Source of the DNA: Candidatus Kapaibacteriota bacterium | GTDB lineage: Bacteria > Bacteroidota > Ignavibacteria > OLB7 | Assembly: GCA_048594725.1 (NCBI GenBank) | Contig: JBMDXA010000199.1 | Span: 159-64,158, forward strand | Length of the DNA: 64,000 bases | Direction: 5' to 3' | In this document: piece by piece, positions 19,801 to 51,856 of the stretch | Position numbering within the stretch: position 1 is the stretch's first letter | How the letters are laid out: each line of letters begins with the position of its first letter | Position numbers and translations under genes: made by a program | The notes under the pieces: generated by a model | What the model was told of the DNA's origin: nothing | Database searches by the model: none | Seen by the model: the letters and a program-made list of their open reading frames with translations, nothing else

Positions 19801-20028
19801 ACCTATAATGCGGCGTATCATCTTTTCAAGATGAACGAGCGGGGCAACTGGGAGAGCATACACCAGGTGCAGTCGGATACGAATACGGAGATGTCATACG
19901 CCTATCCCGACGATCTGCCCACGGCCTCCGGAGGCAAGAGGCTGTATCACCATTTCAAGGTGGCTGCGGTGAATTCCTCGGGATTGCCCAGCAGGGAGGA
20001 GCGGATCGTGACGTTGCCGGGAGAATAA
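10807..20028 (+). CDS. giant hypothetical protein B (3073 aa), family not recognised; FN3-like C-terminal domain
   Basis: A 9.2-kb ORF with protein-like composition. It has a short beta-rich N region (aa 1-256), a Cys/Trp helical repeat array (aa ~257-1504) and a long beta-rich C region. It ends in an FN3-like domain (PAAPAISAAYDG...VVLTWNPTTYNAAYHLFKMNERGNWESI...YHHFKVAAVNSSGLPS). There is no signal peptide or T9SS CTD. Confidence 0.85.
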   Translation: MNQQIALLSLTRVAHFGSFIGGNFTITIQAAGDTTVLQVQIPYGGGTDRDELLAGKEIPNGTWTMMPVNVSVQAMSPQFGGTGSGSTAFQVSTTNQGPYYLDVPVGAMTGPSATIRLTFEATVWECEAPCDEAGWYCGGYHERSVYYKWLCAGKDHTSFNQLASVQSLDTLLVASLPVFNAVQSSLVLNYQPSVSTLFQRLDYALDVTTAAVDRWSQLTWRRRYQINQFSANFVERGIAYLGEAVKKPEIEPPATPVCIKWHDLLRCLCAFNARRSTLPGAAVNQYDVDLLPHINALFWEVIAIAQNEGIGTLLDQNRTDHYEKVRYIAAFFEYWCRRCGYGGSGSLGNIEYYYPLLQQRYESLISSESMEGITLCEPTLEELCDRWLEILSCIRKLCDLRAQLPQGVVDDIVTTFEDLVASLQQSLMFLGGTFLPGIESLCVRAGLAASGIEKYICPDNLLPGGADRRDALEALLLQFESAMDGFIARNGDLCKDEIPVGPEFCDDWLDLLGCLKRICDGRREMLPDLRSAFFGLLFIPVRHLYHIVSDTPLSDAPAGIGELCYRIGYLHTAFSAICSEGVIDPILKLHIDGYLAGLQDALDELKDEYPDICAETLLLDPDFCPDMKEILACLRRVCDQADILHPSVLEYFLDEYYNHIDYLYWLVLDIPSEYELPAVRLGVGAMCSRLEAIQEYIDAICELEEADPIRKMRLEYQLGGLRSAHTAFLLRYPALCTPQPGYNCIDWLAMLDCLARLCDKRVWLERYHPEVITRIIELFGGEEPQEDSPLDEVFDPLFPTLPAPVPGGSIDRICYKVRSVLDRLAGHCVCGISLDPAQLGALEAWLIPFREAYQELMTDMTILETVHCDDADMQCDRFARIVAFHRLLCREEYDASSPAITAIAGLLQEFSDELPAIILQLGFNPLSVTIPDGSDLCELLDFTLLVLAPASADTGKLPVETRYRIDCFFEALRAQVELYAPVAENRPILCPAGECDDLVDRWLEIFICLCRICNEQANPVWYDTPEAGSIRTFIENEVCPQLLALHPTLRDISESLQLPVDLGFAATESCCLVVHDALVLLAAIGLRCDTLNYQGISPYELDLFYESMQQKMAQLNGLLAVAGLFSCRTECDEWKGMLECLADILLRGDRVSPALAATADSLFGDSITGLYDALYTDGPLDPPASSPVPPAAFGESSWKLLVALKGMYRLCAPWSARWSRELEEPLAALLLEFRGAYATFLMALDAEGITGCGRMEPECDMLGEIAEISARFCNGDADPLDAPVAVAAGLLANLSDELQDIASQLRLAWTLPSGNNFCVRLGSVLGLLGVDLSRPGELTASHRLLARFIFAILREQAAEYGRVFPERAGEPPAPMRAFRGSWMEMLDCICRTCEQLRSMPKSVLDGLTAVKGRFSQMEIRIDVLYPVITTQAAALGVGLGDLDCVNSSCGKLAVIRLFFALYGISAPEPSPGLVTLLAGYQQSLRAALALLRGALQDAGLDPCGGQGDAASTMVQSPHLYIQAAGSTGADGSVPGIHLRWALLEGLAGHLPKGDLAAPYGPYPADYGYNRPDDVVRLYRTPYDELVAAFPVLLDLTAMRPVRVYKAAGAPVLWEFAPIPSDPTFPDVSATAIMLRFADPDLYDDTDHDDPQNIQGDVQYILSHYTGVLDVQPIDKTLFVLDVTVAAAGADPLLEVETVSGGMAAGDDRGIISGRRAFHGNASPHRVINEGVQYARLRWTDCSPATISIQTYSDYYWGISRRYGWEEVGEFSLSLDRDEVYKRLEDREHFTVHKSWPKYQNDPADASGRGRVNVCNYRDRWDRNPAPHSNPEYACQDYERDPEDSLAFAVQEYLEKSSIPGNADPYVQRRSKLQSFTGDQAEIRLSLLQILNLAAQDYHVARMLGLGYIDWSIPSLPGGSGQRYIYAAEYIVAPRRGRVQAPSGKHLYLTLPTAQTDHRLPVGPSLATGTDPAAIEFGLPAFDADSAPMTDQEGYTPYGGARFIRLHKDALVFDLPASTPFFEGDEEFSRMEHTRPLFYGVTLHRLNGSEYERVWPEISNDAGGYERDDYNPYADASPEHYPETIGIPETTSDDGPFFIHHLVKPQEDPDPLVYQAKLARVEGTFNYGLYGINWFSRASEVNIHPEPVTTQFPKRNTIKPPLNLTAHHIQEEYPRIFISAYEAAHLDDLGGTTRVTFDWNHIQNAAYRRADLVEFFFRSSPPARVMGEIARVRELHGTRRVQVQTRSYTDYSVETDPPGGLVIEPAISSDDVSGNLFTGSLLATGAGKFVIADVARDGDGYAVFTLEMTAEDIGERRTYVAPKEGERFLVVENLADTGRWKPLPGCSIPLVSFSDHVERHVPAATGREVIDHVGGIYEPAAIVAAAVDGAYTITFQNPSGVLLPYHEYPEGAGSAVSEHLERVEWYGGSVRIEDTSGAIRTLNVVRIETVPGDPSVPAVPTVLHVAEQSGGGVSLAGTGTLVEFHPSYRAYLRLGDAGIDLAAEVLPAGREQSRTTFIAARAVDTTECHTAGGITFCHSSMLTLPVPHLARRIIVPQVPALPDNPLVATRPDYYGKSTYSFDVYFAARDLSGGLRDPYAMVFYRSSELDLLQALYSDTTVASILGQLPAAGDDSSLAARWRSLFGVETETEETTAEPEDIGTFRRYGGFGFPNPDRSDFFTEDLDNPGTTIAPFAVPPGETGHRKPADVERYIRIAIEGAFLPLTERPVFFDLVAEDPLLRTSQNAPVIRNRNGDLLKPALRAADGSILRDADPGFDPYPMVRRQEGEVELSGDAEHRKWRQVRFADYSLDGASRNIYFYCARELSNTMVSGQRSGMIGPVRLINTYPSVAPGIRAVHARPRSYFGQTRDAIAFEIAAYPASEHVERIRIYRAYAAEQAVTIRTMTMAGEVPLPADGIVHDWFAGALPHYGEPIYYRLTALRRIINEGGMEEYIESLPSETIVTNIVDGIAPAAPAISAAYDGAYPGVLSDVVLTWNPTTYNAAYHLFKMNERGNWESIHQVQSDTNTEMSYAYPDDLPTASGGKRLYHHFKVAAVNSSGLPSREERIVTLPGE
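11578..15320 (+). repeat. protein-level array of 10 super-repeats (~120-130 aa each) with conserved Cys/Trp motif inside giant B
   Basis: Type-I cores start at 11578, 11955, 12316, 12672, 13033, 13426, 13801, 14194, 14578 and 14938 (spacing 356-393 nt). The consensus is C-x(3-10)-C-D-x-W-[LM]-E-[IM]-L-x-C-[IL]-x-R-[ILV]-C-[DN]-x(4-7)-[LM]-P, for example LCDRWLEILSCIRKLCDLRAQLP, FCDDWLDLLGCLKRICDGRREMLP and NCIDWLAMLDCLARLCDKR. They alternate with type-II helices of the form C-x(14-16)-C (LCYRIGYLHTAFSAIC, MCSRLEAIQEYIDAIC). Confidence 0.8.
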
Positions 20029-20523: not shown

Positions 20524-20564
20524 TATTCCGCCGGCCGATGTGCCGGGAATAATCGGGGCGGAAT

Positions 20565-20630
20565 ATTCGATTTCGAACTTCGGATTTTCGATTGGGAGAG
20601 GAGATTTTACGATTTCAGATTTTCGATTAT
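20565..20630 (+). repeat. GATTTTC-heptamer intergenic element (copy E1; satellite copy at 20777..20789)
   Basis: The sequence is attcgatttcgaacttcGGATTTTCGATTGGgagaggaGATTTTACGATTTCAGATTTTCGATTatat. It shares the GATTTTCGATTGG core with the copies at 30953, 40813, 42937, 44893 and 51813 (reverse strand). Confidence 0.7.
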
Positions 20631-20921
20631 ATACCTGATAGACCCAACCATGCCAGATGCATCACGCAAAGCCGCGAAGGCGCAAAGAAGAGGTCTTTCT
20701 TTTCGCCTTCGCGGCTTCCCGTGGGATTCTTCTGGAAGTGCCCACTCAGGGTCGCTGGAGTATATAGTTGCCTTCAGATTTTCGATTGGAAGCGAGGAGG
20801 GGCCGCCGACGGGAGGCCTGCTGTCAGTAAGCAGTCGCCTTCGTCCGTGGCAGCTCCAACGAGACTGCGGGAGTCTAGGGATATTCCCGGAATAATGGAA
20901 ATAAGCTCCTTGACCGGCTGG

Positions 20922-21992
20922 TTACTGCTTCAGCCGGAAGCTGAAGGTCGTGCCGGTTCCCAGTTGCGATTCAACCTGGACGGTGGAGCCATGGGCTTCG
21001 ATGATATGCTTGACGATGGCGAGCCCAAGGCCGCTTCCTCCCACCGCCCGCGAGCGGTCCTTGTTCACCCGGTAGAAGCGTTCGAAGATCCGTCCCAGAT
21101 CCTCTTTCGGGATGCCGATGCCGGTATCGCGCACACGAACGATCGCTTCGGTGGCGCCCGGCTCCAGCTCTATGCTCACCACGCCGCCGGGATGATTGTA
21201 TTTGATGGCATTCTCGATCAGGTTGACCACCGCCTGTTTCAGTCGGTCGCGGTCGCCGAGCACGGAGATATTCCCGTTCCTGGGGGAGCCGGCGATATGG
21301 AACTCCAGCTGCACATCGGCCATCTCGGCGGTGGGCTGAAGTTCGTCGATGATGGCGCGGAAATACTCCACGGCGTTGAAGTAGCGGAAGCTCATCTTCA
21401 TCTCTCCGGATTCGATGCGGGAGATCTCGATCAGATCGGTCAGCAGGGAGTGCAGGCGAAGGACGTTCTGATGGGCCTTGTGGAGAAAATCATCGCGCAC
21501 CTCCGGATCTTCCACGGCGCCATCGATCAGGGTTTCCAGGTAGCCCTGCACCGAGAAGATGGGGGTTCGAAGCTCGTGCGAGACGTTGCCGAGAAACTCG
21601 CTCCGCACCCGTTCCAGCCGTTTCATCTCGGCGATATCGTGTTTGGCGCGGGTGGACATGGCGTTGATGGCCTCGGCGAGCTCGCGCAGCTCCTCCAGCG
21701 GGATCTGCGCGGTATCGATCTTCCGTTCCAGGTCCCCCCTGGAGATCTCGCGCGATACGGCGGTCATGCGGTCCACATGATCGGCGATCTTCTCGGTGAA
21801 ACGGGTCACCCGCATAAATCCCACCACGAAGATCGTGGAGGCCACCACGATGATAAGCCAGATCTCCTGCTCGGGGGATTGGGGGATGCCGAAAATGTAG
21901 TGAAGGACCAGAAGCGTGACGATTGCGGCCACCGCGATGCCCAGCAGCCGGGTGGTTACCCAGCGGACCCGCTGACGAATTGAACCATTCAT
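20922..21992 (-). CDS. sensor histidine kinase (TM-HAMP-HisKA-HATPase, PhoR-like)
   Basis: It has the H-box FLGNVSHELRTPIF, the N-box LIENAIKYN and the G-boxes DTGIGI and GGSGLGLAIV. The start is placed at ATG 21992 (MNGSIRQRVRW + TM helix) rather than at the ORF-track start of 22172. Confidence 0.85.
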   Translation of the reverse strand: MNGSIRQRVRWVTTRLLGIAVAAIVTLLVLHYIFGIPQSPEQEIWLIIVVASTIFVVGFMRVTRFTEKIADHVDRMTAVSREISRGDLERKIDTAQIPLEELRELAEAINAMSTRAKHDIAEMKRLERVRSEFLGNVSHELRTPIFSVQGYLETLIDGAVEDPEVRDDFLHKAHQNVLRLHSLLTDLIEISRIESGEMKMSFRYFNAVEYFRAIIDELQPTAEMADVQLEFHIAGSPRNGNISVLGDRDRLKQAVVNLIENAIKYNHPGGVVSIELEPGATEAIVRVRDTGIGIPKEDLGRIFERFYRVNKDRSRAVGGSGLGLAIVKHIIEAHGSTVQVESQLGTGTTFSFRLKQ

Positions 21993-22070
21993 GCGTGGGG
22001 GATGAGTTGATGGAGGGCGCGCAGCCCTGAGCCGTTTGCGGCGCGTCGTGCCGCTTGTGCGTTCGCCGGC

Positions 22071-22109
22071 AGCAGTATGCGCGAGCAGTATGCGCGAGCA
22101 GTATGCGCG
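22071..22109. repeat. perfect 13-bp x3 tandem repeat (AGCAGTATGCGCG) between the response regulator and kinase genes
   Basis: Units at 22071-22083, 22084-22096 and 22097-22109 are identical. They lie in the 247-bp gap between the RR stop (22240) and the preferred HK start (21992). Confidence 0.9.
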
Positions 22110-22239
22110 GGGCCTGCGGCCGCTGTAGCCGGCAGCAGAGACGGAAGGGGAGAAATCGCCGGAGAGCCTCATCCCGCATCCCTGCCTTTCTGCTACCAGC
22201 CACGATCTACGAACTTATCTCTACTCTGGCAACTCTCCT

Positions 22240-23701: not shown

Positions 23702-24154
23702 ATGCGCTTCAAGTTCTGCAAATCCGTTCTTCTGCTTGCCACTGTGATGGCGCTCCTGCTTGCATACCCGATGTATGCGTGGTCGAGCGCCGAGGTCATC
23801 CGCGCCGTGGTCGCCTCCGGCATCATCGCGCTGGTCAACATCATCGTCGGTTGTATCACCCTCGACTACACGATCGATAAGAGCAATCAGACCTTTATGA
23901 TCGGCGTGTTCGGCGGCATGGGCGTCCGTATGGGGCTCATCCTGCTGGCCGTGGCGATCCTGCTGCTCAATGGTTATCATGCGCTCTCCCTGTCGCTGTC
24001 GCTGATGGGATTTTATGTGGCGTTCATGATCGCCGAGATCATCTATGCCACGCGGGAGCTCTCCCGGCGCAACCCCAGGACCAGGCCGGTCCGCCAGGGC
24101 GCCGATAGAGGAACCTCCCTTCGCTCACTCTCTGTTGAACATCGGAGCAACTGA
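23702..24154 (+). CDS. AtpI-like membrane protein
   Basis: A polytopic hydrophobic 150-aa ORF directly upstream of atpB. Its stop overlaps the atpB ATG (TGATG at 24152-24156). Confidence 0.55.
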   Translation: MRFKFCKSVLLLATVMALLLAYPMYAWSSAEVIRAVVASGIIALVNIIVGCITLDYTIDKSNQTFMIGVFGGMGVRMGLILLAVAILLLNGYHALSLSLSLMGFYVAFMIAEIIYATRELSRRNPRTRPVRQGADRGTSLRSLSVEHRSN

Positions 24155-25230
24155 TGCAAGATCCTGAAACGTTACCTCTCATCGCGCAGGCCGGTGACCA
24201 TCCCGGCACCAGCGAACAGCACTCGGACAAGCCTGCCGGCGATCAGCACGCCGGTGAGCCAGCCGGGGAGCATGGCGCTGCGCCGGAGGCGGGGGATACC
24301 GGGGCCATCTTCAATACGCTCCTGGCAAAGCTGGGTGATCACCGCGAGGTGGAGATCGGGCCGCTGCATCTGCCGTTGCCGGTGATTCTGATCGATGACG
24401 GGGTGCACGTCTATTCGAGCATCGAGTCGATGCAGGCCGCCGGCCGCTACGAGTACACGCATCACCATATCTATCGCGCCGGGACCGAGCAGGCCCCCGC
24501 GCTGGATATGTCGGTGACCAGCCTGGTCTTCTTCCAGTGGCTGGCGATGGCGATTCTCTTCCTGGTGATGGTGCCGATGGCCGCCAGGTACAAGAAGAAC
24601 GGCGTGCGCCCGGTAAAGGGGATCTTCAATGCTATGGAAGCCCTTATCATGTATGTGAGGGATGAGATCGTGCTGCCGAACACCGGCGAGTACGGCAAGA
24701 AGATGATGCCGATCTTCCTGACCTTCTTCTTCTTCATCATCACGATGAACTTCCTCGGGATGGTCCCGTACGGGCATTCCCCCACGGGCAGCCTGAACGT
24801 TACCGCGGGTCTGGCGATCATCGCCTTCTTCACCGTACAGATCGCCTCTATCGCCAAGAACGGCTTCGGCGCCTGGCTGAAGCATCTTACCGGCGGCGTG
24901 CCGGTGTGGCTGTGGCCGATCATGGTGCCGGTGGAAGTTCTCGGCCTTTTCACGAAGCCCTTCGCCCTGTGCGTGCGTCTGTTCGCCAATATGACGGCCG
25001 GCCACGTGATCCTTCTTTCGCTGATCGGTCTGGTGTTCGTAACCTCGGCATTCATCCCGGTCACGCTCGGATTCTCGCTGTTCATCAACATCCTCGAGCT
25101 GCTGGTGGCGTTTATCCAGGCCTACGTCTTCACGATTCTGACGGCGGTGTTCACCGGGATCGGTCTTGCCTCGCATGACCACGATCACGATCACGCCCAT
25201 GGCGGCAGCGAGCACGCGGCTGCACACTAA
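24154..25230 (+). CDS. atpB: F0F1 ATP synthase subunit a
   Basis: It contains NFLGMVPYGHSPTG and the essential-Arg helix RLFANMTAGHVILL. It has the long N-terminal extension typical of FCB-group subunit a and a His/Asp-rich tail (HDHDHDHAHGGSEH). Confidence 0.9.
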   Translation: MQDPETLPLIAQAGDHPGTSEQHSDKPAGDQHAGEPAGEHGAAPEAGDTGAIFNTLLAKLGDHREVEIGPLHLPLPVILIDDGVHVYSSIESMQAAGRYEYTHHHIYRAGTEQAPALDMSVTSLVFFQWLAMAILFLVMVPMAARYKKNGVRPVKGIFNAMEALIMYVRDEIVLPNTGEYGKKMMPIFLTFFFFIITMNFLGMVPYGHSPTGSLNVTAGLAIIAFFTVQIASIAKNGFGAWLKHLTGGVPVWLWPIMVPVEVLGLFTKPFALCVRLFANMTAGHVILLSLIGLVFVTSAFIPVTLGFSLFINILELLVAFIQAYVFTILTAVFTGIGLASHDHDHDHAHGGSEHAAAH

Positions 25231-25248
25231 GGAAGTGGGTTTAGATCG

Positions 25249-25345
25249 TAGTGCTTAGTTCTTGGAGCTTAGTGCTTAGCAGAGAAGAACCATCTCTCGC
25301 TAAGCACTAAGGACTACAGCCGCCGCAGGCGGCGTCCTAAGAACC
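25249..25345. repeat. heptamer-word palindrome plus conserved GC hairpin between atpB and atpE
   Basis: GCTTAGTGCTTAGC ... GCTAAGCACTAAG are inverted words (reverse-complement forms of TAAGCAC/TAAGAAC). They are followed by CAGCCGCCGCAGGCGGCG (25317-25334) and TCCTAAGAAC. Confidence 0.75.
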
Positions 25346-29604: not shown

Positions 29605-29642
29605 GGGGAGCCTTCCGTAACGTGAAGGTTCCCCGTTTTATA
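29605..29642 (+). terminator. intrinsic terminator after atpG
   Basis: GGGGAGCCTTC (29605-29615) pairs with GAAGGTTCCCC (29624-29634) with one G-U pair, followed by GTTTTATATT. Confidence 0.6.
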
Positions 29643-29686: not shown

Positions 29687-30949
29687 ATGAGCCAACCAGG
29701 CCCGGCACAAGAGCCGGCTCCCGGCGAGGGGGCCGAAGAGAAGGGATTTCTACGATCCCCCCTTTTTCCGATCTTCCTGATCGTTCTGGTGGATGTCTTC
29801 GGCTTTACGCTGGTGCTGCCGCTGCTCCCGTTCTATGCCGAGCATCTCGGCGCATCCCCTATCACCGTGGGGCTGCTCACCGCGTCGTTCGCGGCCTGCC
29901 AGCTTATCGCGGGGCCCATCCTGGGGCGCATCTCCGACAAGGTGGGACGGCGTCCCACGCTGCTGGTGAGCCAGATCGGCACGCTGATCGGCTTTGTGAT
30001 TCTGGGCTTCGCCAACTCGCTCTGGATGCTCTTTCTCTCCCGTATCATCGATGGGCTTACCGCCGGCAACCTGAGCATCGCGCAGGCCTATATCAGCGAT
30101 GTGACCAAGCCGGAGAACCGTACCAAGGCGTTCGGCCTGATCGGTATCGCCTTCGGGGCGGGGTTCCTGATAGGGCCGGCCATCTCCGGGTTCCTCTCGC
30201 AGTACGGCTATCACTGGCCGGCGTTTGCGGCGATGACTCTCTCGGCGGGCTCCATCATCTGTACCTGGTTCCTTCTGCGCGAGGCCCCGCGCAATGCGGC
30301 GGAAGGGGAGAGAGCCAGCGCCGTGCGCGGCGGCCGGTTCTCGCAGTTCGGCAGCTTCTTCTCGCGCCCTCTTCCCAGACGGCGCCTGCTGGAGTTCTTC
30401 GCCTTCTCGCTGTCGTTCTCCACGCTGATCGGCGGCCTTGCGCTCTTTCTGGAGCGGCAGTTCTCGTTCGGCGCAAAACAGGTGGGCTTCGTCTTCGCCT
30501 TCTCCGGGCTGATCGGCGGTATCGTTCAGGGAGGGGCGCTGGGGCGTCTGGTGAAGAAGCTGGGAGAGGAGAAGCTCGCCACGGTCGGGTTCATCTCCAT
30601 GGGGCTGGGCTATTTCTTCCTCGGATGGATCTCCGGGGTACCGCTGCTTCTGGTAGCGGTGACGGTGGCCGGGTTCGGCACGGCGGTTACGCGCCCGGCG
30701 CTCACCACGCTCATTACCAAGAGCGTGGGGCGGAGCGAGCAGGGGGCCGCACTCGGCACCAGCCAGTCGCTCGCCAGCGTGGCGCAGATCCTGGGACCGA
30801 TCATCGCCGGCTGGCTGATCGAGCATTATCTGCTGAAGAGCTACGGCCTGGTTGCCGCCTGTATCGCCCTTGCCGGCGCGATGTTCGCGCTGAGCCGCGG
30901 AACACGCGAGGGAGAGATGGAGGAAGGAATGGATACGGCCAGAGCGTGA
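29687..30949 (+). CDS. MFS transporter (DHA1/tetracycline-efflux-like)
   Basis: About 12 TM helices, and MFS motif A GRISDKVGRRPTLL between TM2 and TM3. Confidence 0.85.
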   Translation: MSQPGPAQEPAPGEGAEEKGFLRSPLFPIFLIVLVDVFGFTLVLPLLPFYAEHLGASPITVGLLTASFAACQLIAGPILGRISDKVGRRPTLLVSQIGTLIGFVILGFANSLWMLFLSRIIDGLTAGNLSIAQAYISDVTKPENRTKAFGLIGIAFGAGFLIGPAISGFLSQYGYHWPAFAAMTLSAGSIICTWFLLREAPRNAAEGERASAVRGGRFSQFGSFFSRPLPRRRLLEFFAFSLSFSTLIGGLALFLERQFSFGAKQVGFVFAFSGLIGGIVQGGALGRLVKKLGEEKLATVGFISMGLGYFFLGWISGVPLLLVAVTVAGFGTAVTRPALTTLITKSVGRSEQGAALGTSQSLASVAQILGPIIAGWLIEHYLLKSYGLVAACIALAGAMFALSRGTREGEMEEGMDTARA

Positions 30950-31182
30950 TGAGATTTTCGATTTGCGATTTTAGATTTTCGATTGGGGGAACGTCCGTTG
31001 TCAGTAGTCAGTAGTGCGTCGCCGTTACAACGGGTGTACGTGCCGACGAGTACCTTCTGGTACAACGACCACGGACCACTGACAGCCGCCGCAGGCGGCG
31101 TACTGACTACTGACCTCCTCCTATCTACTATCTACAGCCGCCGCAGGCGGCGGACTAAGAGCTAAGAGCTAAGAACTAAAAA
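30950..31182. repeat. composite heptamer-word/hairpin element filling the convergent gap between the MFS and binding-protein genes
   Basis: The GATTTTC module is at 30953-30989. The GTCAGTAGTCAGTA arm (31000-31013) is a perfect 14/14 partner of TACTGACTACTGAC (31101-31114). Two copies of CAGCCGCCGCAGGCGGCG lie at 31083-31100 and 31135-31152. CTATCTA x2 follows, then TAAGAGC/TAAGAAC words from 31155 to 31187. Confidence 0.8.
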
Positions 31183-32130
31183 CTAAGCTCCAAACACTAC
31201 CTCCCGGTACGGTTCGGCGATGCTGGACTGCACCCGGTCGGCCGGAACCCCTTGCAGCGCATGGTGCAGAAGCTCGGCGGTTTCCACCAGGCGCGGGCCG
31301 GGACGGCTGAAGAAATGATTGCCGTCGAAGACGATCAACCGCACCGATGGGCGCCCGGCCAGCAGCGTGCGGAGTTCTTCGGAGGACTCGATGTCCTGCA
31401 TCGTGCGGGAGATCGCGAAGCCGCAGCAGGAGATCACGATGGCGTCGAACTCCGCCTCGCCGATCGTCTCCCAGGAGAGCTGGCGCGAGTAGTCGCCGGG
31501 ATTGGCAAGCACCGGCGTGCCCCCGGCGGCGCGGACCAGATCGGCCATCCAGTGGCCGGCCGAGAAGGGAGGAATCAGCCATTCCAGCAGAAGCACCCGT
31601 GCCGGAGCCGCCAGCGGCGGGATGGCGGCCAGACGCTCCCGCAGCATCCCGACCCGTTGTTCGCCGCGCTGGCGCAGCCCGAGAAGTTCTCCCACATCGA
31701 TGATCGTGCCCAGCACGTCGTCCAGGGTCTTCGGCTCCAGGTTTACCACGTGCGGCGGTTCCGGCAGGGCTGCCATCGCCGCGTGCACGGTTGCATAGCC
31801 CACCGCGCAGACGGTGCAGAGCTGCTGGGTGAGAACCAGTTCCGGGCGCAGCTCCTTCAACTGCTCCATATCGAGCGTGTAGAGCGTGCCGCCGTCATCG
31901 AGCTGCTGGCGCACCATCTGGTCGATCTGGTCGCTCGGCATCGATGGATTGATTCTTGCATCGGTCAGGCGCGGCCGTGCCAGAACCTCCGGGGGGAAGT
32001 CGCATTCGTGCGTCACGCCCACGAGCGTATCGGCCGCACCCAGCTCGTAGATGATTTCCGTTGCACTCGGAAGGAGGGACAGAACACGTTTCATTGTAAA
32101 TTTGTCGGCTAAAACGGTTGGAGCGGGCAT
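31183..32130 (-). CDS. periplasmic-binding-protein family (BtuF/cobalamin or Fe-siderophore type) ABC substrate-binding protein
   Basis: KRVLSLLPSATEIIYELGAADTLVGVTHECDFP is the typical PBP type-8 start. The start could be 32130 or ATG 32094. No clear signal peptide is visible. Confidence 0.7.
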   Translation of the reverse strand: MPAPTVLADKFTMKRVLSLLPSATEIIYELGAADTLVGVTHECDFPPEVLARPRLTDARINPSMPSDQIDQMVRQQLDDGGTLYTLDMEQLKELRPELVLTQQLCTVCAVGYATVHAAMAALPEPPHVVNLEPKTLDDVLGTIIDVGELLGLRQRGEQRVGMLRERLAAIPPLAAPARVLLLEWLIPPFSAGHWMADLVRAAGGTPVLANPGDYSRQLSWETIGEAEFDAIVISCCGFAISRTMQDIESSEELRTLLAGRPSVRLIVFDGNHFFSRPGPRLVETAELLHHALQGVPADRVQSSIAEPYREVVFGA

Positions 32131-32197
32131 TGTGATTCGTCCGTTCGCGGGCTTCGCCCGCTGTCAGTGGTCCGTGGTGGTTGATACTGGAGGTACT

Positions 32198-33523
32198 GAC
32201 CGGGAACATAGGTAACAAAATAGACCGGGAGCATCGGTAACAGTTTCGTAGATCGTGGCAGCAGATAAGGAGCAACGCCATGAGCTGGAAGGAAACTGAT
32301 AGAGTGCATCAACGGCATCTGTTTATCGAAGCATACCAGAGTGATCTGTACTCGATCACCGAACTGGCTGAGCGCTGGGGCATCAGCCGCAAGACTGCCT
32401 ACAAGTGGATCACACGCTTTGAAGCCGACGGCTCACCCGGGCTGGCAGACCGACGACGCTCTCCGAAGAACTGTCCGCATCGCATGCGTGCCGATATCCA
32501 GGAGCTGCTGCTGGGGTTGCGCCGCGAGCACCCGAACTGGGGACCGCTCACCTTGCGAGAGGTTCTGGCAACCCGGCATCCGCATCTGGTCGTGCCGGCC
32601 CCCAGCACAATCGGTGAGTTGCTGAAGCGCCATGGGCTGGTCGACAAGCGGCCGCCGCGTCGCAAGCTTCAGCAGAGCACCTACGCCAGCAACCCGATTG
32701 TTGCCGAGCAGCCGAATGCCCTGTGGTGCATCGACTTTAAGGGAGAGTTCCGCCTGGGCAACCGGCAGTACTGCTATCCGCTGACCGTCAGCGATGCGTA
32801 CTCGCGCTTCCTGCTGGAGTGCCACGGCTTGAGCGGTACTGCCCATGCAACGACCCAGCGGCGCATGAAGCGGCTCTTTGAGCAGTATGGGCTGCCTGAG
32901 GCGATCCGCAGCGACAACGGTGTGCCGTTCGCCTCGGTGCGCAGCCCGCTGGGGCTCTCACGTCTGAGCCTGTGGTGGGCGAAGCTTGGCATCCAGCATC
33001 AGCGTATCCAGCCCGGGTGCCCGCAGCAGAATGGGCGCCACGAGCGGATGCACCGCACGCTGAAAGCTGAGACGACGCGCCCGCCGGCAGCAAGCCTTGC
33101 TGCGCAGCAGCAGCGCTTCGATGCGTGGCGTGCTGAGTACAACCTGGTGCGACCGCATCAGGGGATCGGCTTGGCCTGCCCAGACTCCTTGTACCAGGCA
33201 AGTTCTCGGAGCTATCCGTCGCGTCTACGGCAGCCGCAGTACCCATCGCACTGTGAGGTGCGTGTGGTCGGGCACAATGGGACGATCCGCTTCAAGCAGC
33301 GGCGGGTGTTTCTGAGCTTCGTATTAACCAACGAGCGAGTCGCGCTTGAGCAGATCGACGATGGCATCTGGAACGTGCTCGTGTATGAGCTGGTTGTTGG
33401 CCGATTTGACGAGCGCGACGGGCAACTTCATTAACAACATCAACGCAGCTGATGGCAACCCGGCTCTGCTGTTCGCAGTGTTACCCATGTTCCCGGTCTG
33501 TTGTGTTACCTTTCTTTCCGGTC
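32198..33523 (+). mobile_element. IS481-family-like insertion sequence (boundaries approximate)
   Basis: A single rve/DDE transposase ORF is flanked by imperfect terminal inverted repeats. The left one is GACCGGGAACATAGGTAACAAAATAGACCGGGAGCATCGGTAACAG (32198-32243). The reverse complement of the right one (33478-33523) is GACCGGAAAGAAAGGTAACACAACAGACCGGGAACATGGGTAACAC. Each end holds tandem GACCGGGAACATGGGTAACA-like sub-repeats. I found no clear target-site duplication. Confidence 0.75.
32280..33434 (+). CDS. IS481-like transposase (HTH + integrase-core/DDE domain)
   Basis: The N-terminal HTH is ELAERWGISRKTAYKWITRF. The catalytic core is LWCIDFKGEF...YPLTVSDAYSRFLL...IRSDNGVPFAS...QPGCPQQNGRHERMHRTLK. 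Confidence 0.85.
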   Translation: MSWKETDRVHQRHLFIEAYQSDLYSITELAERWGISRKTAYKWITRFEADGSPGLADRRRSPKNCPHRMRADIQELLLGLRREHPNWGPLTLREVLATRHPHLVVPAPSTIGELLKRHGLVDKRPPRRKLQQSTYASNPIVAEQPNALWCIDFKGEFRLGNRQYCYPLTVSDAYSRFLLECHGLSGTAHATTQRRMKRLFEQYGLPEAIRSDNGVPFASVRSPLGLSRLSLWWAKLGIQHQRIQPGCPQQNGRHERMHRTLKAETTRPPAASLAAQQQRFDAWRAEYNLVRPHQGIGLACPDSLYQASSRSYPSRLRQPQYPSHCEVRVVGHNGTIRFKQRRVFLSFVLTNERVALEQIDDGIWNVLVYELVVGRFDERDGQLH

Positions 33524-40741: not shown

Positions 40742-40777
40742 CAATGCGCGGGAACCTGCAAACGTTGTATGTATGTT

Positions 40778-40810
40778 GGGGGCGCCACTTCGGTGCCCCC
40801 GGCTTTTTTG
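40778..40810 (+). terminator. intrinsic terminator after purL
   Basis: GGGGGCGCC (40778-40786) pairs with GGTGCCCCC (40792-40800), followed by GGCTTTTTTG. Confidence 0.7.
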
Positions 40811-40812
40811 GG

Positions 40813-41060
40813 GATTTTCGATTTGCGATTTTGGATTTTCGATTGATGGAGAAGTCCGTCGTCAGTTGTCCGTGGCAGTTCCAGCCTGGCGCCATGATGC
40901 TCCGGATACTCCAGTACCAACAACGACTGACAACTGACAGCGGGCGCCGCCCGCGCACAGACCACGGACCTTTTCTCTGTGCCCGCGCACGGACCACGGA
41001 CTTTTTCCCTGTCACTGCTAACTACGGCCGCGGCAGGCGGCGGACTACTAACCAGTAACT
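40813..41060 (+). repeat. composite heptamer-word/hairpin element, homologous to 30950..31182
   Basis: The GATTTTCGATTTGCGATTTTGGATTTTCGATTG module (40813-40849) is near-identical to 30953-30989. The arm GTCAGTTGTC (40861-40870) pairs with GACAACTGAC (40929-40938). GC hairpins are at 40940-40954 (GCGGGCGCCGCCCGC) and 41025-41042 (CGGCCGCGGCAGGCGGCG). GACCACGGACC words occur at 40960 and 40988. Confidence 0.8.
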
Positions 41061-41069
41061 TCCATCCCC

Positions 41070-42938
41070 ATGTTCACGACGTTACGATCGAAGATTCTGT
41101 CGGGCTTTACGGCCCTGATCGCGATCAACGTCGCGTTCGGGCTGTGGTCGATCTATCAGTTCTCCACGGTGGGAGACTCCACCACCGATGCGATCGCCAC
41201 CAACTACGAGCTGATCTCCAACACGGTGCAGCTTGCGGCGCTGGTCGATCGCCAGGTGGATATGCTCCAGAGGATGTCCAATACCGCCACCCCGGACCCC
41301 TATATCGTACAGTTCGAGCAGCGTACCACCGAATTTCTGATCGGCCTTACCCGTGTGGCCCGCAACCGCGCCGCCGATGAAAAGAGCGCGGCACTCGGCA
41401 AGATCAGAACCGATTACGATCACTTTCTTCGCAATGCCCAGGTCTATCGCAATACGCTCACCGGGCGGCAGCGCGGGGATGCGCGCGAGATACTCTACCG
41501 CGATGTGCTCCCGGTTGCCAATGCGGTCAAGGAGAGCTGCTTCGGCATCCTCTACCAGAACCAGAACGAGATCGCCAGCATCCGTACCGACCTGCGGACC
41601 GAGCTGCGGCAGTCGCTGGTGCTTGTGGGGCTTGCCACGCTGGTCAGTACCATGCTCGGCGTGATCGGCGGAGGGTTCTATTCGCGCTGGGCCATCCGCC
41701 CCATCCAGCGGCTCACCCAGGCGGTGAAGAACCTTACCGGCGGCCGCTTCGGCGAGCGCATCCTCATCACCACCGCCGATGAACTGGGGGATCTCTCCTT
41801 CGAGTTCAACCGGATGATCGAGCGCCTGGGCCGCTACGAGGCGATGAATATCGAGCAGCTGCTTCTGGAGAAACGAAAGGTGGAGACGATCGTGCAGTCG
41901 ATCGCCACGCCGATCGTGGTGGCCGATGCGGAGATGCGCCTGCTGCTTATCAACAGCGCCGCGCTGGCACTGTTCCGCCTGCCGATCGAGGAGAAATACG
42001 AGGGACGCTACGTGGGGGATGTGATCGGCGATGAGGCCGTGCTCCACCCGCTCCGCCGCGCCCTTGCCGATGAGGAGCGCCCCGGCAGCTCCCCCGATAT
42101 CTACATGGTGCGGGAGGAGGGGGCCGAGCGGTTCTACGCGGTGGAGACTCTGGGTCTGGAGACCACCTCGGCGGTGAGCGGTGCGGTGATGGTGCTGAGC
42201 GATATCACCCACTTCAAGGAACTGGACCGCCTGAAATCGGATTTTCTCGCGAAGGTCTCCCACGAGTTCCGCACCCCTCTTTCATCCATCATCATGAGTC
42301 TGGACATCCTGCGCGAGGGGCTGCTGGGGGAATTGAACGAGCAGCAGCGCGACCTGCTCCTCTCCAGCAAGGACGATTGCCGCCGCCTCTCGAAGCTCAT
42401 CACCGAGCTTCTGGAGCTTTCCAGGATGGAGGCCAATACCCGCCAGCGCACCGTGGCCGGGATCGATCTGCCCGCCCTTGTCGATGCGGTGCTGCGTCCG
42501 CACAGGCTGCCGGCACGGGAGAAGGGGGTGGAGCTGAGAGAGGAGGTGGCCGAGGAGCTTCCGGTGGTCTGGGCCGATCCGGAGGAGATCCGCTGGCTCT
42601 TCAACAATCTGGTCAGCAACGCGCTGCGGCATACCGATTCCGGCGGCACCATCACCGTGCGCGTGGCGCTGGACGGGGAAGCGCTGGTGGCATCGGTGGA
42701 GGACGACGGGCATGGCATCCCGCTGGACAGCCTGAACAAGATCTTCGAGAAGTTCCATCAGGTCGGCTCGCCGGCCATCACCACCCCCGGCAGCGTGGGT
42801 CTCGGCCTTGCAATTGCCAGGGATGTGGTGGAAAGCTACGGGGGGCGCATCTCCGTGACCAGCGAGATCCACAAGGGCTCCTGCTTCACCGTACGGATTC
42901 CGGGTGCGCGCCTTGCCGCGCCGGGAGGAGAGGGGTGA
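41070..42938 (+). CDS. sensor histidine kinase (TM-sensor-TM-HAMP-PAS-like-HisKA-HATPase)
   Basis: It has the H-box FLAKVSHEFRTPLSSI, the N-box LVSNALRHT and the G-boxes DDGHGIP and GSVGLGLAIA, with two TM segments around a ~150-aa sensor region. Confidence 0.88.
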   Translation: MFTTLRSKILSGFTALIAINVAFGLWSIYQFSTVGDSTTDAIATNYELISNTVQLAALVDRQVDMLQRMSNTATPDPYIVQFEQRTTEFLIGLTRVARNRAADEKSAALGKIRTDYDHFLRNAQVYRNTLTGRQRGDAREILYRDVLPVANAVKESCFGILYQNQNEIASIRTDLRTELRQSLVLVGLATLVSTMLGVIGGGFYSRWAIRPIQRLTQAVKNLTGGRFGERILITTADELGDLSFEFNRMIERLGRYEAMNIEQLLLEKRKVETIVQSIATPIVVADAEMRLLLINSAALALFRLPIEEKYEGRYVGDVIGDEAVLHPLRRALADEERPGSSPDIYMVREEGAERFYAVETLGLETTSAVSGAVMVLSDITHFKELDRLKSDFLAKVSHEFRTPLSSIIMSLDILREGLLGELNEQQRDLLLSSKDDCRRLSKLITELLELSRMEANTRQRTVAGIDLPALVDAVLRPHRLPAREKGVELREEVAEELPVVWADPEEIRWLFNNLVSNALRHTDSGGTITVRVALDGEALVASVEDDGHGIPLDSLNKIFEKFHQVGSPAITTPGSVGLGLAIARDVVESYGGRISVTSEIHKGSCFTVRIPGARLAAPGGEG

Positions 42939-43269
42939 TTTTAGATTTTCGATTGGCCCCGGCGATTTACGATTGACGATTTACGAGGGAGCGGAGGCGA
43001 TTGACGATTTACGAGGGAGCGGAGGCGATTGACGATTTACGATTTTGGGAACGGGGATGATGATTTACGATTGACGATTTACGAGGGGATGTGTGTGGGG
43101 GGGACATGTACGTGGTATTTCGTATTTACTGGTGCTCCAGTGCGCTTCCGCTTCGTCAATCAACACTCGTCAATCGTAAATCCTGCTGTCCCGCTTCTTC
43201 CCTAAGAGCTAAGAACTAAGAACTAAGAGCTAAGAACTAAGAGCTAAGAACTAAGCACCAAGAACTAAG
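42937..43269. repeat. dense tandem/inverted heptamer repeat block filling the kinase-regulator spacer
   Basis: GATTTTAGATTTTCGATTGG (42937-42956) overlaps the kinase stop codon. A 28-bp unit, GATTGACGATTTACGAGGGAGCGGAGGC, is repeated about 2.5 times (42971-43040), with more GATTTAC/GATTGAC words to 43082. The inverted partner GTCAATCGTAAATC lies near 43168-43181. TAAGAGC/TAAGAAC heptamers x9.6 (43203-43269) end 11 nt before the ATG at 43281. Confidence 0.9.
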
Positions 43270-44790: not shown

Positions 44791-44883
44791 CTACAGCACC
44801 TTTGCTAGCAGATACCAGGTTACCACCAGCGTCAATACGATGCCGCCGATGGCGAACATCCGTTCGAGATTGGGACGGAGCAT
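44791..44883 (-). CDS. possible 30-aa single-TM micropeptide (MLRPNLERMFAIGGIVLTLVVTWYLLAKVL)
   Basis: A short ORF below the track cutoff with a hydrophobic core. I saw no RBS or conservation evidence. Confidence 0.15.
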   Translation of the reverse strand: MLRPNLERMFAIGGIVLTLVVTWYLLAKVL

Positions 44884-45158
44884 AAGATGTACGATTTCGG
44901 ATTTACTATCGGCGATTCGGGGATAATCGGCGCCCGCGCACCCAGGATTCACGCATATTTGCGGCCTGAATAATTCTCAGGATATCATCATAATCCGGGA
45001 CACGGCATCCATATGTAATTCGCAAAAAAAAAGTCGTCATAATCCGCGACGGGCCATATAAAATTGCCTTATAAAATTCGCGAAGATTTCATGCTGCCCG
45101 CGCCGGATCGAATAAACAACGCCCGGCCCACGCGGCCAAGATTCGCGCATATTCGCGG

Positions 45159-48983: not shown

Positions 48984-49068
48984 GCCCGGATGGCGAAATG
49001 GCAGACGCATCAGACTTAAAATCTGAAGTCGCGTAAGCGACGTGCGGGTTCAAGTCCCGCTCCGGGTA
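48984..49068 (+). tRNA. tRNA-Leu (anticodon UAA)
   Basis: The cloverleaf was folded by hand. The acceptor is GCCCGGA/TCCGGGT and the anticodon stem TCAGA/TCTGA, with loop CTTAAAA (anticodon TAA). It has a long variable arm, GTCGCGTAAGCGAC, and a T arm GCGGG-TTCAAGT-CCCGC. Confidence 0.9.
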
Positions 49069-51647: not shown

Positions 51648-51701
51648 CCGGCTGCCTGTCTACCAGGATGTGCCAGGCCATGCCACCGGCCGCATAACGC
51701 A

Positions 51702-51742
51702 ACGGCCCTCGTGAACGCATCACGAGGGCCGTTATTTTTTTT
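51702..51742 (+). terminator. intrinsic terminator after the multicopper oxidase gene
   Basis: A perfect 12-13-bp stem, ACGGCCCTCGTG (51702-51713) with CACGAGGGCCGT (to 51732), followed by TATTTTTTTT. Confidence 0.75.
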
Positions 51743-51812
51743 AATGATGTACGATGGAATTAAAATTACCCCCAATCGAAGAATCCCCCTCCCACCACCA
51801 CCAATTCCGCAT

Positions 51813-51856
51813 CCCCCAATCGAAAATCCAAAATCGAAAATCGAAAATTTCCCCCC
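51813..51856 (-). repeat. GATTTTC-heptamer element (copy E5, minus orientation), just 3' of the DUF1501 gene
   Basis: The reverse complement reads GGGGGGAAATTTTCGATTTTCGATTTTGGATTTTCGATTGGGGG. It lies 12 nt after the minus-strand stop at 51868. A partial copy, CCCCCAATCGAAGAATCCCCC, is at 51769-51789. Confidence 0.8.

What the first reader, a model, noticed from the sequence alone, without database searches (positions are those of the whole stretch)
30953..30989. Dispersed GATTTTC-heptamer module (consensus GATTTTCGATTTGCGATTTTRGATTTTCGATTGGGGG) placed on the 3' side of genes
I found seven copies:
- 20565-20630, plus a satellite at 20777-20789
- 30953-30989
- 40813-40849
- 42937-42956, extended by GATTTAC/GATTGAC words to 43082
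- 44893-44922
- 51813-51856 (reverse strand), plus a partial copy at 51769-51789

Four copies (30953, 40813, 42937, 51813) start within or soon after the stop of a gene on the same strand. Two overlap or abut the stop codon: at 30953 the module begins 4 nt after the MFS TGA, and at 42937 it overlaps the kinase TGA. The 51813 copy lies 12 nt after the DUF1501 stop. The copies at 20565 and 44893 lie farther from the nearest co-oriented stop (about 540 and 290 nt). All are strictly 7-bp periodic (GATTTNC words) and end in a G run. The genome also has canonical hairpin-plus-T-tract terminators at 29605, 40778, 48933 and 51702, so these modules do not simply replace terminators. The 40813 copy starts 3 nt after a terminator's T tract, which argues for a DNA-level role or a read-through RNA role. 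Candidates are a protein-binding array, a 3'-UTR platform for an RNA-binding protein, or the head of a non-autonomous mobile element.
Basis: seen in the sequence. Interest (0 to 1): 0.65.

Follow-up and report, generated by a model that had tools for sequence, protein, structure and literature searches.

The report
Heptamer repeat cassette placed after stop codons
The "module" is real, but it is one family of the long-known and still unexplained 7-base tandem repeats of bacteria (STRR-type repeats), here in a Kapabacteria-like genome; it is a recently gained, dispensable 33-base cassette that sits just after stop codons, not a new kind of regulatory element.

Summary
The GATTTNC arrays are real (35 matches against 3.6 expected). 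Three copies are full length, (GATTTNC)4+GATTG, about 33 nt: 30953, 40813 and 51813(-). The other four are short or degenerate. The window also holds other heptamer arrays (CTAAGAA, GTCAGTA, CTATCTA). They combine with a recurring GC hairpin into 230-340 nt repeat-built spacers.

The closest relative (85% identical kinase, same gene order) has none of these arrays. Its kinase-regulator spacer is 35 nt against 342 nt here. A second relative has a different heptamer (GGCAAAA) starting 4-7 nt after two stop codons.

The exact cassette occurs in at least 8 phyla. A shuffled control heptamer is equally widespread, so the unit sequence is not special. Across phyla the cassette lies in sense orientation within 15 nt of a stop codon (9 sense, 0 antisense). 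It also lies antisense and in frame inside genes (19:1), including LeuRS, CarB, MurD, SMC and PurL (peptide IENRKSKIEN). Heptamer arrays in general abut stops, with the C-poor strand as mRNA sense.

No promoter, Rfam family or phage copy was found. Published Xanthomonas and Nostoc heptamer repeats show the same four-unit, 3'-of-gene pattern.

Verdict: a new member of a known kind, most likely non-essential copy-and-paste repeat DNA tolerated in 3' UTRs. Function is untested.

The parts
30953..30989 (+). Full cassette GATTTTC GATTTGC GATTTTA GATTTTC GATTG + GGGG. It starts directly after the TGA-TGA end of the MFS transporter gene (29687-30949).
30990..31187 (+). Rest of composite element A. 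It holds a long hairpin with heptamer-derived arms (GTCAGTAGTCAGTA 31000-31015 pairing with TACTGACTACTGAC about 31101-31114), two copies of the hairpin CAGCCGCCGCAGGCGGCG (31083-31100 and 31135-31152), CTATCTA x2, and a CTAAGAG array (31154-31187). On the minus strand the CTAAGAG array contains the TAG stop of the periplasmic-binding-protein gene (31183-32130, -).
40813..40849 (+). Full cassette GATTTTC GATTTGC GATTTTG GATTTTC GATTG. It lies 3 nt after the T tract of the PurL terminator (40775-40803), 72 nt after the PurL stop.
40850..41069 (+). Rest of composite element B, co-linear with A. It holds a GTCGTCAGTTGTC...GACAACTGACAGC hairpin, a 32-nt x2 repeat (40949-41012) and the hairpin CGGCCGCGGCAGGCGGCG (41025-41042). 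It ends at the histidine-kinase start (41070).
42937..42956 (+). Short cassette GATTTTA GATTTTC GATTGG. The T before its first GA forms the kinase stop codon TGA (42936-42938).
42961..43087 (+). GATTTAC/GATTGAC heptamers arranged in a 28-nt higher-order repeat (42970-43042, 2.6 copies, 100% matches). The inverted partner lies at 43150-43182.
43202..43269 (+). (CTAAGAA/CTAAGAG) x 9.7 array ending 12 nt before the ATG of the sigma-54 response regulator (43281). Together with the two parts above it fills a 342-nt kinase-regulator spacer that is 35-42 nt in relatives.
51813..51856 (-). Full cassette flanked by G runs: GGGGGG AA ATTTTC GATTTTC GATTTTG GATTTTC GATTG GGGG. It starts 11-12 nt after the DUF1501 stop (51868-51870) and lies upstream of the conserved bidirectional terminator (51701-51733), so it is inside the 3' UTR.
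51769..51789 (-). Partial copy GGGGGATTCTTCGATTGGGGG.
20562..20630 (+). Degenerate, irregular GATT-type array: GATTTTC GATTGGG ... GATTTTAC GATTTCA GATTTTC GATTA.
20777..20789 (+). Satellite GATTTTC GATTGG (1.7 units).
44886..44923 (+). Degenerate array in 7-nt register: GATGTAC GATTTCG GATTTAC TATCGGC GATTCGG. It lies immediately 5' of a small conserved minus-strand membrane ORF (44800-44886).
25241..25312 (+). Another heptamer family: (K)CTTAGT array with its inverted partner CTAAGCACTAAGG. It starts 11 nt after the stop of atpB (24154-25230) and is followed by the hairpin CAGCCGCCGCAGGCGGCG (25317-25334).

Best explanation
The module is an STRR-type heptanucleotide tandem repeat. It is a discrete cassette of about 33 nt, (GATTTNC)4+GATTG, and one of several heptamer families that build repeat-made spacers in this Kapabacteria-like genome.

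It is most likely non-essential repeat DNA. It is copied to new places, often as part of larger composite elements. Its units are homogenised within an array by slippage or gene conversion. It is kept only where it does no harm. Permissive places are directly after a stop codon with the C-poor, T-rich strand as mRNA sense, between convergent genes, or antisense and in frame in surface loops of proteins, where it reads as the hydrophilic peptide IENRKSKIEN.

After a stop codon it is transcribed as the first, unpaired stretch of the 3' UTR or intercistronic RNA, ahead of heptamer-built hairpins. Any effect there would be passive and REP-like, acting on the mRNA 3' end or as insulation.

Shown: the anatomy, the copy relationships, the absence from relatives, and the cross-phylum position and orientation rules.
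Inferred: the copy-and-paste spread, the selective filtering, transcription of the copies, and the lack of a dedicated factor.
For: Class membership:
- The unit is 7 nt and the copies are dispersed.
- Other heptamer families share the same spacers.
- Published heptamer repeats in Xanthomonas and Nostoc mostly have 4 units. They are 89-93% intergenic, lie on average 28 nt from the upstream ORF against 160 nt from the next ORF, form inverted pairs, differ between close species, and have no known function (PMC4692102).
- Cyanobacterial STRR are 7-bp repeats that form hairpins between genes, function unknown (PMC2670836).

Not essential and recently gained:
- The syntenic locus of the closest relative (kinase 85% identical) has no period-7 array in 22 kb. 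Its spacers are 87, 179 and 35 nt against 233, 328 and 342 nt here.
- The 76% relative has a different heptamer (GGCAAAA/GTCAAAA), starting 7 nt after the MFS stop and 4 nt after the AccC stop.
- Protein C-termini end where the orthologues end.

Copy and paste:
- Elements A and B are co-linear over about 230 nt. They share the rare GATTTGC second unit, seen in about 4 of 100 cross-phylum copies.
- The same order, GATTTTC array followed by GATTTAC array, recurs on four contigs of one metagenome.

The unit sequence is not special:
- A shuffled heptamer pattern hit at least 120 loci in many phyla.

Filtering by context:
- Of 85 dereplicated cassette sites, 19 are antisense in CDS and 1 is sense (p=4e-5). 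9 are sense and 0 antisense within 15 nt after a stop (p=0.004).
- In-frame IENRKSKIEN inserts occur in LeuRS (twice), CarB, MurD, SMC and PurL.

Homogenisation:
- At one orthologous site in 27 Microcoleus species the array is always 33 nt, while its units switch together between GATTTTC, GATTTTG and GATTTGG.

RNA context:
- Copy E lies between a stop codon and a conserved terminator.
- The array is largely unpaired in predicted folds, while the flanking heptamer arms form hairpins (z = -2.9 and -3.4).

Negative results for other roles:
- No promoter motif, Rfam family or phage copy was found.
Against: - The cassette has a fixed size. 91 of 100 arrays have exactly 4 units, whereas the control heptamer arrays span 5-41 units. 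Free slippage does not predict this. It could reflect a functional length or a fixed inserted unit.
- Heptamer arrays of any unit start within 15 nt of a stop 3.5-4 times more often than in later bins.
- The mRNA-sense strand of those arrays is C-poor: 70 against 13 overall, 28:2 in cyanobacteria and 42:11 elsewhere. Such strong rules may mean targeted insertion or a real function at gene ends, not just tolerance.
- No enzyme or mechanism for the proposed copying is known or seen in the window.
- No target-site duplication or empty site could be defined at nucleotide level.
- Transcription was not measured.
- ORFs in the comparison loci were called by simple rules, not by a gene finder.
Confidence: 0.55

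Rival explanations
1. Functional post-stop RNA element. The single-stranded (GAUUUUC)n at the start of the 3' UTR is read in 7-nt register by an RNA-binding protein (for example a cold-shock-domain type), or serves as an RNase entry or processing site (each unit fits RN|WUU). It would then set mRNA decay, 3'-UTR sRNA release or coupling to the next cistron.
For: - Sense orientation within 15 nt of stops.
- The C-poor sense strand is a general rule in both cyanobacteria and other phyla.
- Fixed length of about 33 nt.
- The array is unpaired ahead of hairpins.
- Copy E lies between a stop and a terminator.
- The literature suggests roles in transcript stability or translational coupling for STRR (PMC2670836).
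Against: - Absent at all orthologous sites in the 85% relative.
- A different unit sits at the same sites in another relative.
- Copy 40813 lies after a terminator.
- The complementary strand is the one transcribed in 19 CDS copies.
- The control heptamer prefers, if anything, the A-rich strand after stops: 12 against 5.
- The named binders rest on recalled knowledge only.
Confidence: 0.2
2. DNA heptad array bound cooperatively by a small DNA-binding protein, in the way the omega repressor of pSM19035 binds tandem 7-bp heptads. It would act as a polar boundary or roadblock at gene ends.
For: - A constant GATT core with variable positions 5-7.
- Four to five heptads with sharp ends.
- The orientation pattern (sense after stops, antisense inside genes) is what a polar block would allow.
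- Copy 40813 lies beyond a terminator, so a DNA-level role is possible.
Against: - Heptamer arrays with unrelated units show the same positional rule.
- A shuffled unit is equally widespread, so one sequence-specific protein cannot explain the class.
- The cassette is not conserved in relatives.
- No candidate binder was identified.
- Peptide selection explains the CDS bias more simply.
Confidence: 0.1
3. Plain microsatellite. Each array arose in place by replication slippage, with no copying between sites.
For: - Heptameric SSRs are over-represented in bacteria, and polymerase slippage has been proposed as the cause (PMC4692102).
- Units change in concert within arrays.
- Control heptamer arrays show SSR-like lengths of 5-41 units.
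Against: - Copies 30953 and 40813 share a rare variant pattern and co-linear flanks.
- 33-nt arrays lie inside conserved housekeeping genes with no visible local seed.
- The length is capped at 4 units.
Confidence: 0.1
4. Promoter, UP element or 5' leader of the downstream gene (kinase or response regulator).
For: - The copies at 40813 and 42937 lie upstream of co-oriented genes.
- The cassette is AT-rich in a 61% GC genome.
Against: - No sigma-70-like site and no Bacteroidetes-type TAnnTTTG motif lies downstream of any copy.
- Copies 30953 and 51813 lie between convergent genes.
- Relatives express the same genes without the cassette.
Confidence: 0.04
5. Head of a classical MITE with terminal inverted repeats and target-site duplications, moved by a transposase.
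For: - The composite elements are paralogous.
- An IS481-family transposase gene lies at 32280-33434.
- Inverted copies of a 54-66 nt sub-module flank the gene at 31183-32130 (I1 and I3).
Against: - No terminal inverted repeats or duplications bound elements A or B.
- The cassette also occurs alone, in genes and in phyla without the rest of the composite.
Confidence: 0.05

Closest known systems
Heptameric repeats GGGAATC of Xanthomonas and GGGGA(T/C)T of Nostoc PCC 7120 (Rehm et al. 2015, PMC4692102)
   Same: - 7-nt unit, with four units the commonest size.
- Mostly intergenic.
- Much closer to the upstream ORF (mean 28 nt) than to the next one (160 nt).
- Frequent inverted pairs.
- Different between close species.
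- Transcribed, with function unknown.
   Different: - Those units are G-rich and form G-quadruplexes, and the authors explain the four-unit preference that way.
- GATTTTC has no G tracts yet shows the same four-unit size.
- Those repeats show no overall strand bias in Xanthomonas.
STRR, the short tandemly repeated repetitive sequences of heterocyst-forming cyanobacteria (Mazel 1990 from own knowledge; Vioque 1997 cited)
   Same: - Tandem heptamers of several unit families in one genome.
- Dispersed and hairpin-forming between genes.
- Also found inside a functional gene (rnpB).
   Different: - The units differ (CCCCAGT, TTGGTCA, CAACAGT).
- STRR were described only in cyanobacteria.
- Here the host is Kapabacteria-like, and the same cassette occurs in at least 8 phyla.
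REP/BIME elements of enterobacteria
   Same: - Roughly 35-nt dispersed elements in 3' UTRs and between cistrons.
- Many lie within 15 nt of a stop codon.
- They have passive effects on mRNA 3' ends and translation (own knowledge: Newbury 1987; Liang, Rudd and Deutscher 2015).
   Different: - REP are imperfect palindromes moved by RAYT transposases (PMC3116915).
- The cassette is not a palindrome, and no RAYT gene is in the window.
Small dispersed repeats of Nostoc (Elhai 2008) and Rickettsia palindromic elements
   Same: - Very small repeats that behave as mobile.
- They are found within heptamer arrays (the Nostoc repeats) or inserted in frame in protein genes (the Rickettsia elements). Own knowledge; Elhai cited.
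   Different: - The sequences are unrelated.
- The Rickettsia elements are 100-150 nt palindromes.
- Neither paper could be read here.
Omega-repressor heptad operators of plasmid pSM19035
   Same: Tandem 7-bp heptads (WATCACW), direct or inverted, bound cooperatively. This is a precedent for reading DNA in 7-bp register (own knowledge).
   Different: - They are plasmid promoter operators.
- No such protein or promoter context is seen here.

Membership tests
Heptanucleotide tandem repeats (STRR / heptameric SSR) | Head-to-tail copies of a 7-nt unit | tested here: met
   TRF finds period 7 with 4.4-4.6 copies at 30953, 40813 and 51818.
Heptanucleotide tandem repeats (STRR / heptameric SSR) | Many dispersed copies, mostly intergenic, with several unit families in one genome | tested here: met
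   Seven GATT-type sites plus CTAAGAA, GTCAGTA and CTATCTA arrays, all in spacers. Only 64 kb of the genome was available.
Heptanucleotide tandem repeats (STRR / heptameric SSR) | Close to the 3' end of the upstream ORF, with about four units typical (as in PMC4692102) | tested here: met
   compared.
Heptanucleotide tandem repeats (STRR / heptameric SSR) | Variable between close relatives | tested here: met
   Absent in L176. A different unit occurs in L180.
Heptanucleotide tandem repeats (STRR / heptameric SSR) | Copy-number polymorphism by slippage | tested here: inconclusive
   Units are homogenised, but the length is constant at a coding site in 27 Microcoleus species. No strain-level data exist for the window's lineage.
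STRR in the strict sense | Cyanobacterial host and the units CCCCAGT, TTGGTCA or CAACAGT | tested here: not met
   The host is Kapabacteria-like and the unit is GATTTTC.
G-quadruplex heptamer repeats | Four or more G tracts of at least 3 G | tested here: not met
   There is one G per unit.
REP / REPIN | Imperfect palindrome of about 35 nt, and a RAYT gene in the genome | tested here: not met
   The array is unpaired in folds. The flanking proteins scanned in the window gave no Y1-transposase (RAYT) hit; not every ORF was scanned. The rest of the genome was not available.
MITE | Terminal inverted repeats and target-site duplication | tested here: not met
Intrinsic terminator | GC-rich hairpin followed by a T tract | tested here: not met
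   The scan finds true terminators beside the cassettes, not in them.
Any Rfam family | Covariance-model match | tested here: not met
   Only a tRNA matched at gathering score. Nothing matched on the cassettes at E<=1.

The most novel reading that the evidence does not exclude
The 33-nt cassette, and heptamer arrays in general, may be written or placed by a dedicated and still unknown mechanism shared by many bacterial phyla. That could be an insertion process coupled to the end of translated regions, or a factor that reads nucleic acid in 7-nt register. This would explain three things: the fixed four-unit size without G-quadruplex potential, the start within 15 nt of stop codons with the C-poor strand as mRNA sense, and the clean in-frame insertions into housekeeping genes.
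Probability: 0.2. Interest if true: 0.8.

Novelty: new member of a known kind. Interest (0 to 1): 0.4.

Why it matters
Heptamer tandem repeats have been known since 1990 and are used for strain typing, yet nobody knows why the unit is 7 nt or what the repeats do. This case adds a non-G-rich family in a new phylum. It also gives testable rules:
- A four-unit size that cannot be explained by G-quadruplexes.
- A start within a ribosome footprint of the stop codon.
- A C-poor sense strand.
- Antisense in-frame insertions into essential proteins.

If these rules hold genome-wide, they narrow the search for the mechanism.

For annotation, the practical point is that such cassettes should be read as repeat DNA. 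They are not promoters or novel RNAs. They can also inflate operon spacers: the kinase-regulator spacer here is 342 nt against 35 nt in the closest relative.

Tried and rejected
- Promoter role: no sigma-70-like or TAnnTTTG motif lies next to any copy.
- Known RNA family: none found.
- Phage-borne spread: 0 hits in 2.9 million viral contigs.
- Sequence-specific cross-phylum element or horizontal transfer of GATTTTC: weakened by the control, since a shuffled heptamer saturates the same scan.
- Rho avoidance as the reason for the C-poor sense strand: the bias is as strong in cyanobacteria, which lack Rho by my own knowledge.
- Arrays as three-frame stop cassettes: stop-containing units are only modestly enriched near stops (59% against 37%), and GATTTTC has no stop in any frame.
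- Truncation of genes by the array: C-termini match the orthologues, and only the kinase is about 5 aa shorter.
- Finding the source contig by exact protein look-up: not on record.
- Finding empty sites for the LeuRS insertions: two protein searches failed.
- Reading Elhai 2008 and Vioque 1997: neither paper is held.
- Literature searches for the motif and for the peptide returned nothing useful.

Full report
**Observation**

The motif is real. GATTTTCGATTT with up to two mismatches occurs 35 times in the window. Shuffles give 3.6 +/- 2.0. TRF reports period-7 arrays at 30953-30984, 40813-40844 and 51818-51848.

Three copies are full length: 30953-30989 (+), 40813-40849 (+) and 51813-51856 (-). 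They are nearly identical, at 92-93% over 37-40 nt. Each reads as four GATTTNC units followed by GATTG.

The other four sites are weaker.
- 42937-42956 has two units plus GATTGG. It runs on into a GATTTAC/GATTGAC array with a 28-nt higher-order period, ending at 43087.
- 20562-20630 is irregular and includes an 8-nt unit.
- 20777-20789 is 1.7 units.
- 44886-44923 is degenerate. It lies just 5' of a small conserved minus-strand ORF, not 3' of a gene.

Gene identities were checked with Pfam: MFS transporter, PurL, histidine kinase, sigma-54 response regulator and DUF1501 with a T9SS tail. The reported distances to stop codons hold. So do the four terminators.

**What surrounds the copies**

The same spacers also carry:
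- (CTAAGAA)n at 31154-31187, at 43202-43269, and reverse-complemented at 25241-25280;
- GTCAGTA at 31000-31015;
- CTATCTA at 31121-31135;
- a recurring hairpin CAGCCGCCGCAGGCGGCG at 25317, 31083, 31135 and 41025.

The spacers 30950-31182 and 40810-41069 are co-linear paralogues. Both run in this order: GATTTTC cassette, a hairpin with GTCAGT-type arms, the GC hairpin, then a CTAAGA-type tail. They fold better than shuffles (z = -2.9 and -3.4), with the cassette itself largely unpaired.

Two of the CTTAG-type arrays also abut stops. One starts 11 nt after atpB. The other contains the TAG stop of the minus-strand periplasmic-binding-protein gene.

**Relatives**

The window comes from an FCB-group bacterium close to Candidatus Kapabacteria.

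Two syntenic loci were recovered: L176 (kinase 85% identical) and L180 (76% identical).
- L176 has no period-7 array in 22 kb. Its spacers are much shorter:

| Spacer | L176 | Window |
|---|---|---|
| MFS to binding protein | 87 nt | 233 nt |
| PurL to kinase | 179 nt | 328 nt |
| Kinase to regulator | 35 nt | 342 nt |

- L180 lacks GATTTTC. It has GGCAAAA/GTCAAAA arrays that start 7 nt after the MFS stop and 4 nt after the AccC stop.

Protein C-termini in the window end where the orthologues end. The terminator downstream of DUF1501 is conserved in L176, so copy 51813 sits inside a pre-existing 3' UTR.

The arrays are therefore recent, dispensable and lineage-specific. Even so, a different heptamer obeys the same placement in a relative.

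**Other phyla**

The hosts include Microcoleus, Tychonema and Nostoc, and members of Planctomycetota, Verrucomicrobiota, Acidobacteriota, Chloroflexota, Armatimonadota, Bacteroidota and Deltaproteobacteria. It gave no hit in viral contigs.

A control was essential here. A shuffled heptamer of the same composition, (GTATTCT)n, also hit the limit, with at least 120 loci in many phyla. The GATTTTC unit is therefore not special. What is general is the 7-nt period.

The two sets do differ in length. Control arrays span 5-41 units. 91 of 100 GATTTTC arrays have exactly four units before GATTG, and unselected arrays in the same loci drop sharply above four units.

**Position and orientation**

I used simple ORF rules with dereplication of similar flanks and a GC3 filter. 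This gave 85 cassette sites.

| Context | Count |
|---|---|
| Inside long ORFs, antisense | 19 |
| Inside long ORFs, sense | 1 (p = 4e-5) |
| Sense, within 15 nt after the stop of an ORF of at least 150 codons | 9 |
| Antisense, within 15 nt after such a stop | 0 (p = 0.004) |
| Elsewhere or unclear | 53 |

The lenient count gave about 16-19 sense against 0-2 antisense near stops.

The coding copies are in frame. They read (P/T/S/A)IENRKSKIEN(P/R/L/Q) in LeuRS (twice), CarB, MurD, SMC, PurL and an NRPS. The sense strand would encode DFRFSIF, so peptide selection is a sufficient reason for the bias inside genes.

Heptamer arrays of any unit start within 15 nt of a long-ORF stop 3.5-4 times more often than in later 15-nt bins. 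In those stop-adjacent arrays the mRNA-sense strand is C-poor, 70 against 13. The ratio reverses for arrays 15-150 nt away. That fits inverted partners and arrays belonging to the convergent gene. The bias holds in cyanobacteria (28:2) and in other phyla (42:11).

Caveat: orthologous sites inflate some of these counts, and ORF calling was crude.

**How the arrays evolve**

One orthologous coding site was examined in 27 Microcoleus species. The array is always 33 nt. Its units change together, being all GATTTTC, all GATTTTG or all GATTTGG. This shows homogenisation within arrays at constant length.

In the window, copies 30953 and 40813 share the rare GATTTGC second unit and their flanks. Seven metagenome contigs carry this exact variant. 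Four of them, from one sample, follow it with a GATTTAC array, as at 42937. Three of the seven have a TGA 3 nt upstream. This supports copying of composite units between sites.

**Comparison with what is known**

Rehm et al. (PMC4692102) describe heptamer repeats in Xanthomonas and Nostoc. Four units is the commonest size. They are 89-93% intergenic. They lie on average 28 nt from the upstream ORF and 160 nt from the next one. They form inverted pairs, differ between close species, are transcribed, and have no function found. [quoted passage not shown]

Cyanobacterial STRR are 7-bp repeats that form hairpins between genes, with stability or translational coupling suggested as roles. They also occur inside rnpB (reference).

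The present cassette fits this class on every structural feature tested. It fails only the narrow STRR definition (host and units) and the G-quadruplex feature. It is not a REP, MITE, terminator or Rfam family.

**Mechanism**

The best-supported reading is non-essential repeat DNA. It is copied between sites, homogenised by slippage or conversion, and filtered by context. It is transcribed as an unpaired 3'-UTR stretch ahead of repeat-built hairpins.

The steps shown are the anatomy, the paralogy, the absence in relatives and the cross-phylum rules. The steps inferred are the copying process, the selection and the transcription.

Two facts keep the functional rivals alive: the fixed size, and the strong stop-adjacent, strand-specific placement. 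These rivals are an RNA platform read in 7-nt register, or a DNA heptad array bound by a protein.

A promoter role is unlikely.

**Verdict**

The finding is a new member of a known kind. The interpretation as a distinct module is too narrow. The general rules found along the way deserve a proper genome-wide test.

Noticed in passing
L010, L045, L095, L049, L040, L027 (other phyla): The 33-nt cassette is inserted antisense and in frame in housekeeping genes: LeuRS twice, CarB, MurD, SMC, PurL and an NRPS. It adds the peptide IENRKSKIEN or QSKIENRKSKI. In PurL of L040 it sits beside a second heptamer-derived peptide repeat (DSRL...).
   Followed up: partly
window 2066-10633 and 10807-20028 (+): Two adjacent giant ORFs (2855 and 3073 aa) have coding-like GC3 but no Pfam domain. 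They share internal repeats of about 40 nt (families D4 and D12).
   Followed up: partly
window 32280-33434 (+): An IS481-family transposase gene lies between the periplasmic-binding-protein gene and yqeY. It is absent at this position in both relatives. Inverted copies of a 54-66 nt repeat sub-module flank the neighbouring gene (31049-31114 and 32132-32197).
   Followed up: partly
window 49251-51647: About 2.6 kb carrying a multicopper oxidase with a T9SS sorting domain lies between a tRNA gene (48984-49068) and DUF1501. L176 has nothing there, and L180/L181 carry different cargo (an AAA ATPase gene). This looks like a tRNA-adjacent insertion hot spot.
   Followed up: partly
window 25317, 31083, 31135, 41025 (+); similar at about 61620: A short GC hairpin, CAGCCGCCGCAGGCGGCG, recurs in repeat-built spacers, usually followed by a CTAAGA-type heptamer. 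It gives 4 matches against 0.02 expected.
   Followed up: partly
window 44800-44886 (-): A small ORF (MLRPNLERMFAIGGIVLTLVVTWYLLA...) is conserved in L176 downstream of the response regulator. It is probably an unannotated small membrane protein.
   Followed up: no
L328 about 8900-9100 (metagenome contig Ga0209027_1000749): A long near-perfect palindrome is built from two heptamer families in mirror order: CTGGAGT units, the GATTTTC cassette, a loop, then both reverse complements.
   Followed up: no
window 22071-22109: A perfect 13-nt x 3 tandem repeat (AGCAGTATGCGCG) lies within the 5' part of the minus-strand histidine-kinase ORF (20922-22172). At 39 nt it is in frame.
   Followed up: no
L180 1208-1245, 1297-1323, 6961-6995, 3026-3041: The 76% relative uses GGCAAAA/GTCAAAA arrays right after two stop codons. 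It also has an AAACAGG x2 array directly before the MutS2 start codon.
   Followed up: partly
L205-L324 (control heptamer loci): (GTATTCT)n arrays reach 41 units, and 26 of 121 lie at contig ends. They are also antisense when inside ORFs (12:0), and 17 lie within 15 nt of a stop.
   Followed up: partly
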